This document shows, in pieces, positions 20,436 to 27,729 of a DNA stretch of 64,000 nt. The stretch lies in NCBI RefSeq assembly GCF_009931435.1, contig NZ_CP043414.1. One strand, 5' to 3'. Positions within the stretch are counted from its first letter, which is position 1. Each line of letters starts with the position of its first letter. The notes below the pieces were generated by a model. It saw only the letters and a program-made list of their open reading frames with translations. It ran no database searches and was not told where the DNA came from. This DNA comes from Escherichia coli. Its GTDB lineage: Bacteria; Pseudomonadota; Gammaproteobacteria; Enterobacterales; Enterobacteriaceae. The position numbers were made by a program, and so were the translations under genes.

Positions 20436-20511
20436 TGGTGCTGATAGGCAGATTCGAACTGCCGACCTCACCCTTACCAAGGGTGCGCTCTACCAACTGA
20501 GCTATATCAGC
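20436..20511 (-). tRNA. thrT: tRNA-Thr
   Basis: Reverse complement reads GCTGATATAGCTCAGTTGGTAGAGCGCACCCTTGGTAAGGGTGAGGTCGGCAGTTCGAATCTGCCTATCAGCACCA (encoded CCA). Confidence 0.9.
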
Positions 20512-20517
20512 ACATCT

Positions 20518-20592
<75 letters not shown>

Positions 20593-20708
20593 ATCCTGGA
20601 ACTCGGCTACCTGATTTTCATTCTGCACTGAATATCGAGAGAAGCTCTCTTTATTCGAGCCGGTAAGCGAACTTATCGTCTCGGGCTACGCCATCGCGTG
20701 GCCGAAAT

Positions 20709-20793
<85 letters not shown>

Positions 20794-20801
20794 GGACTTG
20801 A

Positions 20802-20877
<76 letters not shown>

Positions 20878-27653: not shown

Positions 27654-27729
27654 TGGCGTCCCCTAGGGGATTCGAACCCCTGTTACCGCCGTGAAAGGGC
27701 GGTGTCCTGGGCCTCTAGACGAAGGGGAC
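27654..27729 (-). tRNA. gltT: tRNA-Glu in the 16S-23S spacer
   Basis: Reverse complement reads GTCCCCTTCGTCTAGAGGCCCAGGACACCGCCCTTTCACGGCGGTAACAGGGGTTCGAATCCCCTAGGGGACGCCA. Confidence 0.95.

What the first reader, a model, noticed from the sequence alone, without database searches (positions are those of the whole stretch)
20593..20708. 116-nt structured spacer between glyT and tyrU
The other tRNAs in the cluster are separated by 6-8 nt, but glyT and tyrU are separated by 116 nt that contains short inverted repeats (for example GAGAGAAGCTCTCT). This is probably an RNase processing spacer, noted in case it holds a small transcript.
Basis: seen in the sequence. Interest (0 to 1): 0.15.

Follow-up and report, generated by a model that had tools for sequence, protein, structure and literature searches.

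The report
Structured spacer inside tRNA-tufB operon
The 116 bases between the tyrosine and glycine tRNA genes are the long-known internal spacer of the E. coli thrU-tyrU-glyT-thrT-tufB transcript, most likely cut out and discarded during tRNA maturation; it is ordinary, although relatives show its three hairpins and a 12-base block before glyT are kept by selection.

Summary
tyrU (window 20709-20793) and glyT (20518-20592) lie on the minus strand 116 nt apart. The other gaps are 8 and 6 nt, and the quoted inverted repeat is present.

The spacer is identical to E. coli K-12. It is identical in about 94% of 5,426 complete E. coli genomes, and nearly all the rest differ by one SNP. It is single-copy, unannotated, and matches no Rfam family. 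It has no sense-strand promoter, terminator or plausible ORF.

Alone, the E. coli sequence folds no better than shuffles (z = -0.64). Comparison with 120 gammaproteobacterial loci shows more:
- The Tyr-Gly gap is the long gap of the cluster in most genomes.
- Enterobacteriaceae keep three hairpins through compensatory changes.
- GGTAGCCGAGTT, 9-20 nt upstream of glyT, is invariant.
- A covariance model built without Escherichia finds the E. coli spacer as its only hit in the window (E about 6e-6).

Best reading: a transcribed spacer where RNase E splits the precursor, RNase P and exonucleases finish the tRNA ends, and the excised piece decays. The cleavage itself is inferred, not shown. Three public data sets show no stable spacer-derived RNA, and one Hfq-CLASH read covers the glyT leader.

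Verdict: a known feature and a real but modest conserved structure. Interest is low.

The parts
20709..20793 (-). tyrU, tRNA-Tyr(GUA); its CCA end abuts the spacer
   Evidence: ARAGORN; Rfam tRNA 53.4 bits; K-12 annotation
20593..20708 (-). the 116-nt tyrU-glyT internal transcribed spacer (K-12 coordinates 4175557-4175672)
   Evidence: identical to K-12; single copy and unannotated in E. coli genomes; full-length hit of model R1, 33.7 bits, E 5.7e-6
20704..20708 (-). spacer nt 1-5, AUUUC: U-rich trailer right after CCA; predicted RNase E entry site (A A|UUU)
   Evidence: RN|WUU motif scan; the spacer starts NUUUC in most Enterobacteriaceae and is U-rich at its 5' end in most taxa sampled; mapped RNase E sites in other tRNA precursors have the same context (PMC2190699). 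Cleavage here is inferred
20684..20703 (-). hairpin H1, spacer nt 6-25 (GGCCACGC-GAUG-GCGUAGCC, one C.A mismatch)
   Evidence: pair probabilities 0.92-0.98 for the upper stem; 89.6% paired with 4/7 compensatory pairs on the hand-registered alignment; 94.5% and 6/6 on the model alignment; 14/22 identity to the tyrT-distal flank
20657..20682 (-). hairpin H2, spacer nt 27-52 (UUCG loop; two mismatches, weak in E. coli)
   Evidence: MAFFT alignment: 90.3% paired, 9/11 compensatory pairs, 0/500 shuffles, slid controls 26-44%; in E. coli -5.0 kcal/mol and pair probability about 0.13
   Evidence: -8.3 kcal/mol, pair probabilities 0.6-0.9; 95% paired and 9/9 compensatory pairs on the model alignment
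20612..20629 (-). spacer nt 80-97, A/U-rich stretch (AGUGCAGAAUGAAAAUCA), the most accessible part of the fold
   Evidence: unpaired probability 0.5-0.9 for nt 83-94; aligns with the ACAGAAAGAAC stretch, which is invariant in the seven Enterobacter-type spacers and nearly so across the 15 Enterobacteriaceae
20600..20611 (-). spacer nt 98-109, GGUAGCCGAGUU: invariant 12-mer 9-20 nt upstream of glyT; contains a GAG|UU RNase E-type motif
   Evidence: 12 contiguous invariant columns in 15 Enterobacteriaceae; present in nearly all sampled Enterobacterales (Tatumella and Rosenbergiella carry variants) and in Orbaceae and Plesiomonas; only exact copy in the window; RNase E consensus from PMC5222698
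20593..20599 (-). spacer nt 110-116, CCAGGAU: proximal 5' leader of glyT, removed by RNase P
   Evidence: sequence; role inferred from the general tRNA maturation pathway (PMC2190699, PMC11143913)
20518..20592 (-). glyT, tRNA-Gly(UCC)
20802..20877 (-). thrU, first tRNA of the operon, 8 nt upstream of tyrU
20436..20511 (-). thrT, 6 nt downstream of glyT, followed by the tufB leader and tufB

Best explanation
The region is the internal transcribed spacer of the single thrU-tyrU-glyT-thrT-tufB transcript. It is not a gene of its own. It is transcribed from the thrU promoter together with the four tRNAs and tufB. RNase E probably cuts in its A/U-rich single-stranded parts: right after the tyrU CCA (A|UUUC), in the accessible stretch nt 83-94, and/or at the invariant GAG|UU 9 nt before glyT. 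That splits the precursor into a thrU-tyrU half and a glyT-thrT(-tufB) half. RNase P then makes the 5' ends of the tRNAs and separates the tightly spaced pairs (8-nt and 6-nt gaps). 3' exonucleases trim tyrU, and the excised piece of about 100 nt is degraded. The three hairpins H1-H3 are kept by selection. They probably make the spacer a self-contained fold that leaves the cleavage sites exposed and does not interfere with folding of the flanking tRNAs. Shown: the position within one operon, the sequence motifs, the conserved hairpins and 12-mer, and the absence of a detectable stable product in the public data sets consulted. Inferred: which nuclease cuts and where, the role of the hairpins, and the reason for the 12-mer's invariance.
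For: One transcription unit: the gene order coaA / thrU-tyrU-glyT-thrT-tuf-secE is annotated in E. coli, and the spacer holds no sense-strand promoter-like or terminator-like site. The CCA-AUUUC start matches the context of all mapped RNase E sites in E. coli tRNA precursors (tyrT CCAU|AAUUC, lysY CCAG|UUUUA, cysT CCACU|UUCU), whereas short non-A/U spacers are cut by RNase P alone (PMC2190699). RN|WUU motifs fall at the CCA junction and within the spacer, and GAG|UU has the critical U+2. The first 22 nt resemble the tyrT-distal flank, where RNase E cleavage is mapped (14/22, 5/5000 shuffles). The Tyr-Gly gap is the long gap of the cluster in most of 120 gammaproteobacterial loci, and every Enterobacterales locus carrying the four-tRNA cluster follows this pattern. 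Selection on structure: H2 is 90.3% paired with 9/11 compensatory pairs, H1 89.6% with 4/7, and all three hairpins are 90-95% paired on 27 sequences. Model R1, built without Escherichia, hits the spacer with E 5.7e-6. No stable product was found. There is no Term-seq 3' end between 4175463 and 4175747, although ends about 10,000-fold weaker are listed. There is no spacer fragment in the small-RNA survey. There is no tyrU.glyT node in the RIL-seq-derived tables. Nothing is annotated there in RefSeq E. coli genomes.
Against: No experiment on this particular spacer was accessible, so RNase E cleavage here is by analogy. In the equilibrium fold of the isolated spacer, the two end motifs (nt 2-5 and GAGUU) are mostly paired with each other, and only nt 83-94 are clearly accessible. 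A 12-nt invariant block is more conservation than a 5-nt RNase E motif needs. Hairpins maintained by compensatory change suggest some role beyond being discarded. The Term-seq list is curated and also lacks the tyrU and thrT ends, so the absence of a spacer end is weak evidence. One Hfq-CLASH chimera contains spacer nt 86-116 joined to glyT.
Confidence: 0.65

Rival explanations
1. The excised spacer, or its 3' part carrying the conserved block, is a functional RNA in its own right. It could be an Hfq-associated decoy or sponge like the 3' external spacer of leuZ, released by RNase E during tRNA maturation.
For: Precedent: the leuZ 3'ETS is made by RNase E and sponges RyhB and RybB (PMC5222698; PMC5145812). 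The invariant 12-mer and the conserved purine-rich stretch ACAGAAAGAAC (three ARN-like triplets in relatives) are more conserved than a discarded spacer needs. One Hfq-CLASH hybrid contains spacer nt 86-116 plus glyT 1-23. Hairpins closed by a terminal helix would protect an excised fragment.
Against: No called 3' end in the spacer in Term-seq. No spacer fragment in the stationary and exponential small-RNA survey. No tyrU.glyT node in RIL-seq-derived tables. The interactome papers consulted name only leuZ 3'ETS among tRNA spacers. A 2021 review states that no stable ITS has been reported. The CLASH evidence is a single read in one experiment, and its predicted pairing lies in the glyT body. 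The conserved block remains attached to pre-glyT rather than to the hairpin part if GAG|UU is the cut site.
Confidence: 0.12
2. The spacer is a cis-acting transcriptional element. It would act as a pause or partial terminator that lowers read-through from thrU-tyrU into glyT-thrT-tufB and so sets the ratio of upstream tRNAs to downstream tRNAs and EF-Tu.
For: In Enterobacter, Kluyvera, Shimwellia and BIGb0383, H3 is an A-tract, a stem and a run of 6-8 U. Neptunicella and Psychromonas spacers also carry a hairpin followed by a T-run. The spacer sits at the one position that divides the operon in two.
Against: In E. coli, H3 is followed by GAUAUUCAG, not a U-run. The scan finds no sense-strand terminator; its only hit is the antisense reading of H3. 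The stems are GC-poor. Term-seq lists no 3' end in the spacer, and the glyT 3' end (2.9e7 reads) is about as abundant as the thrU end (4.3e7).
Confidence: 0.07
3. The spacer is mostly evolutionary debris: leftovers of duplicated tRNA or RtT-type sequence, inserted by recombination at tRNA-Tyr 3' ends, with no function beyond being tolerated.
For: RtT elements sit inside this same spacer in Mixta (96.9 bits) and Erwinia psidii (52.3 bits). Spacer length ranges from 19 to 346 nt across lineages. The H1 region resembles the tyrT-distal flank. The conserved block aligns in one register with the 5' acceptor/D-arm of tRNA-Ser: 14/14 in Glaciecola, 11/14 in E. coli. The hairpin part is the least conserved non-coding piece of the operon, with mean column identity 0.70 against 0.81 for the promoter and the tufB leader.
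Against: No RtT or tRNA covariance-model hit in the E. coli spacer even at E <= 10. Debris would not keep three hairpins through compensatory changes. Nor would it hold a 12-mer invariant across Enterobacterales and Orbaceae.
Confidence: 0.1
4. The spacer holds an independent gene, either a small RNA with its own promoter or a small protein.
For: The length would allow it.
Against: No sigma-70-like promoter and no sense terminator. The only ORFs of 20 aa or more overlap the tRNAs or run antisense, and frequent indels among relatives break any frame. No Rfam family matches. No annotation in any of the E. coli records listed or inspected, K-12 included.
Confidence: 0.02

Closest known systems
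RNase E-dependent spacers of E. coli polycistronic tRNA transcripts (for example argX-hisR-leuT-proM, glyW-cysT-leuZ, tyrT-tyrV)
   Same: It lies between co-transcribed tRNAs. It has A/U-rich sequence immediately 3' of CCA (CCA-AUUUC against tyrT CCAU|AAUUC and cysT CCACU|UUCU). No stable product is known.
   Different: At 116 nt it is near the top of the 2-209 nt range for E. coli tRNA-tRNA spacers. It carries three hairpins conserved by covariation and an invariant 12-mer. Cleavage of this spacer has not been shown in anything I could read.
tyrT-tyrV spacer and RtT repeats (Rfam RF00391) of the other tRNA-Tyr locus
   Same: Both are long sequences distal to a tRNA-Tyr gene. The first 22 nt after CCA are 14/22 identical to the tyrT-distal flank. 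In Mixta and Erwinia an RtT unit sits inside the tyrU-glyT spacer itself.
   Different: The E. coli tyrU-glyT spacer gives no RtT hit even at E <= 10, has no copy of the tRNA-Tyr 3' end, is not repeated, and shows no BLAST similarity beyond 8-mers.
3' external transcribed spacer of leuZ (sRNA sponge) and the metZWV internal spacers
   Same: It is a tRNA-operon spacer conserved among enterobacteria that could be released by RNase E.
   Different: No stable fragment and no sRNA chimeras were found for it in the data consulted. It is internal rather than 3'-terminal and lacks a terminator hairpin with a U-tail, the usual Hfq-binding module.

Membership tests
Internal transcribed spacer of a polycistronic tRNA operon | Lies between two co-oriented tRNA genes of one transcription unit, with no promoter or terminator of its own | tested here: met
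   tRNA positions; operon annotation; no sense-strand promoter-like or terminator-like site
Internal transcribed spacer of a polycistronic tRNA operon | A/U-rich single-stranded sequence immediately 3' of the upstream CCA, the context of all mapped RNase E sites in tRNA precursors | tested here: met
   CCA-AUUUCGG; RN|WUU match at the junction; comparison with PMC2190699 Table 1. In the equilibrium fold nt 2-5 are partly paired
Internal transcribed spacer of a polycistronic tRNA operon | RNase E-dependent (or RNase P-dependent) cleavage in vivo | not testable with these tools
   Needs northern blots or primer extension in rne-ts and rnpA49 strains. The held TIER-seq supplements contained no entry for these genes
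RtT RNA (Rfam RF00391) | Covariance-model score at or above the gathering threshold (45 bits) | tested here: not met
   No hit at E <= 1 on 3 kb or E <= 10 on the spacer alone. Positive controls: 4 copies at tyrT/tyrV with 133-138 bits; Mixta 96.9 and Erwinia psidii 52.3 bits inside their tyrU-glyT spacers
tRNA or tRNA pseudogene (Rfam RF00005) | Cloverleaf covariance-model match | tested here: not met
   ARAGORN finds nothing in the spacer; no RF00005 hit there. The only trace is an 11/14 ungapped resemblance of the conserved block to serV nt 2-15, p about 0.03
tRNA-spacer-derived sRNA sponge (leuZ 3'ETS type) | A discrete, stable excised fragment detectable in total RNA | tested here: inconclusive
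   No 3' end in curated Term-seq and no fragment in the small-RNA survey. Both lists are filtered and raw coverage was not available
tRNA-spacer-derived sRNA sponge (leuZ 3'ETS type) | Hfq association and specific chimeras with sRNAs | tested here: inconclusive
   No tyrU.glyT node in RIL-seq-derived tables. One single-read Hfq-CLASH chimera with the cutC 3'UTR covers spacer nt 86-116 plus glyT
tRNA-spacer-derived sRNA sponge (leuZ 3'ETS type) | Conserved complementarity to the seed of a known sRNA | not tested
Intrinsic (Rho-independent) terminator or attenuator | GC-rich stem followed by a U-run on the transcribed strand | tested here: not met
   The scan finds only the + strand (antisense) reading of H3. 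On the sense strand H3 is followed by GAUAUUCAG
Dispersed repeat (REP/BIME/MITE-like) | Multiple copies per genome | tested here: not met
   Median of 1 place per genome in both megablast and word-11 blastn

The most novel reading that the evidence does not exclude
The tyrU-glyT spacer is an uncatalogued, selectively maintained RNA element: three covarying hairpins plus the invariant GGUAGCCGAGUU block, which may be an ancient mimic or relic of a class II tRNA 5' arm. It would have a specific job beyond being a cutting site. Candidate jobs are ordering or timing the maturation of tRNA-Tyr and the glyT-thrT-tufB half, recruiting Hfq or a nuclease to the precursor, or acting as a short-lived decoy after excision. 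It may be more active in Enterobacter-type species, where the fold is far more stable than in E. coli.
Probability: 0.18. Interest if true: 0.5.

Novelty: already known. Interest (0 to 1): 0.2.

Why it matters
For the scan, it does not matter much. This is a textbook intergenic spacer of a model operon, identical to K-12, with no sign of a hidden gene. The modest added value is comparative. The spacer is not random filler. Its hairpins covary, and a 12-nt block before glyT is as conserved as the operon's promoter core, yet neither is in Rfam. If someone wanted to test whether bacterial tRNA internal spacers can carry function, as the leuZ 3' spacer does, this would be a well-defined, single-copy, genetically tractable candidate with clear mutational predictions.

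Tried and rejected
- **RtT relic:** rejected. No covariance-model hit even at E <= 10, and BLAST shows only 7-8-mers. RtT does occupy the same spacer in Mixta and Erwinia.
- **tRNA pseudogene:** rejected.
- **Internal promoter for glyT-thrT-tufB:** no consensus match. By eye the best candidate is TCGAAT-16-GATATT, 7 of 12.
- **Sense terminator:** rejected.
- **Small ORF:** rejected.
- **Dispersed repeat:** rejected.
- **Single-sequence folding significance:** not significant.
- **Outer closing helix (CUUUCUG/CAGAAAG):** seen in Enterobacter-type spacers but not formed in E. coli.
- **Literature that led nowhere:** searches for tyrU+glyT and tyrU+RNase E found nothing on the spacer. Lalaouna 2015, Fournier & Ozeki 1985 and the van Delft papers are not held. 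The TIER-seq supplements had no entry for these genes. RIL-seq 2016 supplements are not held. TRIC-seq mentions only leuZ 3'ETS.
- **Technical failures:** the first z-score script timed out after 25 species. The tRNA harvest from the loci contained no tRNA-Ser or tRNA-Leu, so serV was fetched separately.

Full report
**What is there.** ARAGORN and Rfam place four tRNA genes on the minus strand: thrU (20802-20877), tyrU (20709-20793), glyT (20518-20592) and thrT (20436-20511). They are followed by tufB, and coaA lies divergently upstream. The quoted inverted repeat is at 20637-20650 on the + strand. The locus is the E. coli thrU-tyrU-glyT-thrT-tufB operon. The spacer is base-for-base identical to K-12 MG1655 4175557-4175672.

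**Within E. coli.** The spacer is found once per genome in 5,420 of 5,426 complete genomes. Word-11 blastn of the hairpin part also finds one place per genome, so it is not a dispersed repeat. About 94% of genomes are identical over nt 1-97, and nearly all the rest differ from the window by a single SNP in the 116 nt. Three variants I read carry these changes:
- G73A, in an internal loop.
- A57G, which turns A-U into G.U.
- G49A, at a position that is already mismatched.

That is compatible with structural constraint, but three genomes are anecdotal. Nothing is annotated in the spacer in K-12 or in the other RefSeq records listed or inspected.

**What it is not.**
- No Rfam family matches, at E <= 1 on 3 kb or at E <= 10 on the spacer alone.
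- It is not RtT. The positive controls work: four RtT copies at tyrT/tyrV score 133-138 bits.
- It is not a tRNA or pseudo-tRNA.
- There is no sigma-70-like promoter and no terminator on the transcribed strand. The only terminator-like hit is the antisense reading of hairpin H3.
- The ORFs of 20 aa or more overlap the tRNAs or run antisense.

**Is it structured?** The E. coli sequence alone does not say so. Its MFE is -31.8 kcal/mol against -29.45 +/- 3.67 for shuffles, z = -0.64. Comparison with other genomes changes the picture.

I scanned the species-representative genome collection with the exact glyT sequence, so the sample is not biased by the spacer. This returned 120 loci. In most of them, and in every Enterobacterales locus that carries the four-tRNA cluster, the Tyr-Gly gap is the longest of the three gaps (in several Vibrio and some Pseudoalteromonas the thrU-tyrU gap is as long or longer):

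| Group | Tyr-Gly spacer length |
|---|---|
| Vibrionaceae, Aeromonas, most Alteromonadales, Pasteurellaceae | 19-56 nt |
| Plesiomonas | 33 nt |
| Enterobacteriaceae, Hafniaceae, Morganellaceae | 87-124 nt |
| Erwiniaceae | 90-346 nt |

Most relatives' spacers fold far better than shuffles, with z of -3 to -8. E. coli and E. albertii are at -0.8 (partial run).

The Enterobacteriaceae spacers share three hairpins:
- **H2**, on an unbiased MAFFT alignment: 90.3% of cells paired, 9 of 11 pairs with changes on both sides, 0 of 500 shuffles as good. Sliding the partner drops pairing to 26-44%.
- **H1**, registered by hand from the stem base: 89.6% paired, with 4 of 7 compensatory pairs.
- **Family model.** A covariance model built from seven Enterobacter-type spacers, none from Escherichia, finds the E. 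coli spacer full length as its only hit in the 64-kb window (33.7 bits, E 5.7e-6). H1 and H2 align in register.
- **All hits.** On the model-based alignment of 27 distinct sequences, H1, H2 and H3 are 94.5%, 89.6% and 95% paired, and every pair shows compensatory change. This alignment is fitted to the model and so leans towards it.

In E. coli itself H1 and H3 are well populated (pair probabilities 0.6-0.98). H2 has two mismatches, -5 kcal/mol and pair probability about 0.13. The outer closing helix of the Enterobacter type is not formed. That explains the unremarkable z-score.

**The conserved block.** The hairpin part is the fastest-evolving non-coding piece of the operon. Its mean column identity is 0.70, against 0.81 for both the promoter and the tufB leader. 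The 3' end is different. GGTAGCCGAGTT (window 20600-20611) forms 12 contiguous invariant columns in 15 Enterobacteriaceae. It recurs in Morganellaceae, Hafniaceae, most Erwiniaceae (Tatumella and Rosenbergiella carry variants), Orbaceae and Plesiomonas, where it makes up most of the 33-nt spacer. Looser versions occur in Vibrionaceae and Alteromonadales.

The block aligns in one register with nt 2-15 of tRNA-Ser serV. The match is 14/14 in Glaciecola (0 of 500 shuffles as good) and 11/14 in E. coli, Plesiomonas and Gilliamella (p about 0.03). I treat that as a lead on its origin, not a conclusion.

**Mechanism.** Mohanty and Kushner tabulate the mapped RNase E sites in E. coli tRNA precursors. 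All lie in A/U-rich sequence just 3' of CCA: tyrT CCAU|AAUUC, lysY CCAG|UUUUA, hisR CCAUU|AUUA and cysT CCACU|UUCU. A 4-nt non-A/U spacer (valV-valW) is cut by RNase P alone (PMC2190699). The in vivo RNase E consensus is RN|WUU, with U at +2 critical and C tolerated (PMC5222698).

Several features of the spacer fit this:
- tyrU reads CCA-A|UUUC, which fits the consensus.
- The invariant GAG|UU, 9 nt before glyT, has U+1 and U+2.
- The stretch at nt 83-94 is the most accessible part of the fold.
- The first 22 nt after tyrU are 14/22 identical to those after tyrT (5 of 5000 shuffles as good), where cleavage is mapped.

The economical model is as follows. RNase E separates the precursor at this one long spacer. 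RNase P then resolves the 8-nt and 6-nt junctions and makes the glyT 5' end. Exonucleases trim tyrU, and the excised spacer decays. The cuts themselves are inferred. In the equilibrium fold the two end motifs partly pair with each other.

**Is there a small transcript?** I found no support in the data I could reach.
- **Term-seq.** The curated list of Adams et al. goes from the thrU end (4175463, 4.3e7 reads) straight to the glyT end (4175747, 2.9e7) and then to a site inside tufB. Ends of about 10^3 reads are listed elsewhere. The caveat is that the tyrU and thrT ends are also missing from the list.
- **Small-RNA survey.** It lists tyrU and glyT fragments consecutively, with nothing between them.
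- **RIL-seq-derived tables.** They hold tyrU and glyT tRNA nodes but no tyrU.glyT node.
- **Hfq CLASH.** One chimera (one read, one experiment) joins the cutC 3'UTR to spacer nt 86-116 plus glyT 1-23. This shows only that leader-bearing pre-glyT can meet Hfq.
- **Reviews.** A 2021 review states that no stable bacterial ITS has been reported. The interactome papers I read name only the leuZ 3' spacer.

**Verdict.** The processing-spacer reading is the best explanation (confidence 0.65). The small-transcript idea is not supported. The feature has been part of a model operon's published sequence for decades, so I rate it already known and of low interest (0.2). The conserved three-hairpin architecture and the invariant 12-mer are real, are not catalogued in Rfam, and are unexplained in detail. 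That leaves about an 18% chance that the spacer does something more specific than being cut out.

Noticed in passing
L106 4037-4161 (Mixta sp.); L060 2516-2631 (Erwinia psidii); L051 (Erwinia endophytica) spacer: A true RtT element (Rfam RF00391; 96.9 and 52.3 bits), ending in a pseudo-copy of the tRNA-Tyr 3' end, sits inside the tyrU-glyT spacer of these Erwiniaceae. A degenerate copy is visible by eye in E. endophytica. In E. coli, RtT occurs only at tyrT/tyrV. This suggests recombination between tRNA-Tyr loci moves RtT units.
   Followed up: partly
window 20600-20611 (-); L013 (Glaciecola) spacer; L124 21-113 (serV): The invariant GGTAGCCGAGTT block and its flank align in one register with the 5' acceptor/D-arm of tRNA-Ser. 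The match is 14/14 in Glaciecola and 11/14 in E. coli, Plesiomonas and Gilliamella. It may be a relic or mimic of a class II tRNA 5' part; the reason for its conservation is unexplained.
   Followed up: partly
window 20687-20708 (-) versus L002 (tyrT-tyrV spacer start): The first 22 nt distal to tyrU and distal to tyrT are 14/22 identical (5 of 5000 shuffles as good), and both form a hairpin around a shared GCGAUG. The tyrV-distal flank shows no such similarity.
   Followed up: yes
L057, L084, L111, L020 (Enterobacter, Kluyvera, Shimwellia, BIGb0383); L069, L093 (Neptunicella, Psychromonas): In these species a spacer hairpin is followed by or built from a run of 5-8 U (A-tract, stem, U-tract), which looks terminator-like. 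E. coli lacks the U-run. Possible partial termination or pausing within the operon in other genera.
   Followed up: no
window 20637-20649 (+): The only terminator-like hit in the region is the antisense reading of hairpin H3 followed by TTTATTCG. No + strand gene runs into it, so it is probably incidental.
   Followed up: partly
L015, L030, L040, L043, L052, L068, L073, L075, L114, L119 (Aeromonas): Aeromonas genomes carry a second, identical glyT copy in a different context, paired with tRNA-Gly(CCC) at 10-105 nt, in addition to the Tyr-Gly arrangement.
   Followed up: no
window 20596-20625 (-): The forward primer of a published 403-bp 'tufB promoter' luciferase reporter (PMC5371648) lies at spacer nt 84-113. 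That construct therefore includes the conserved block, glyT and thrT as well as the thrT-tufB region.
   Followed up: no
window 20464-20572 (-): A sub-threshold Rfam hit to YrlA (Y RNA-like; 31.3 bits against a gathering score of 69) spans glyT-thrT. Weak Plastid-ycf2 hits lie antisense to the tRNAs. Both are tRNA look-alike artefacts.
   Followed up: yes
window 27654-27729 (-): A tRNA-Glu(UUC) about 7 kb away is probably the spacer tRNA of a ribosomal RNA operon (rrnB neighbourhood in K-12). I did not examine it.
   Followed up: no
L060 8509-8585: An Rfam P26 (Pseudomonas sRNA P26) hit of 50.3 bits lies downstream of the tufB-secE-nusG region in Erwinia psidii. I did not examine it.
   Followed up: no
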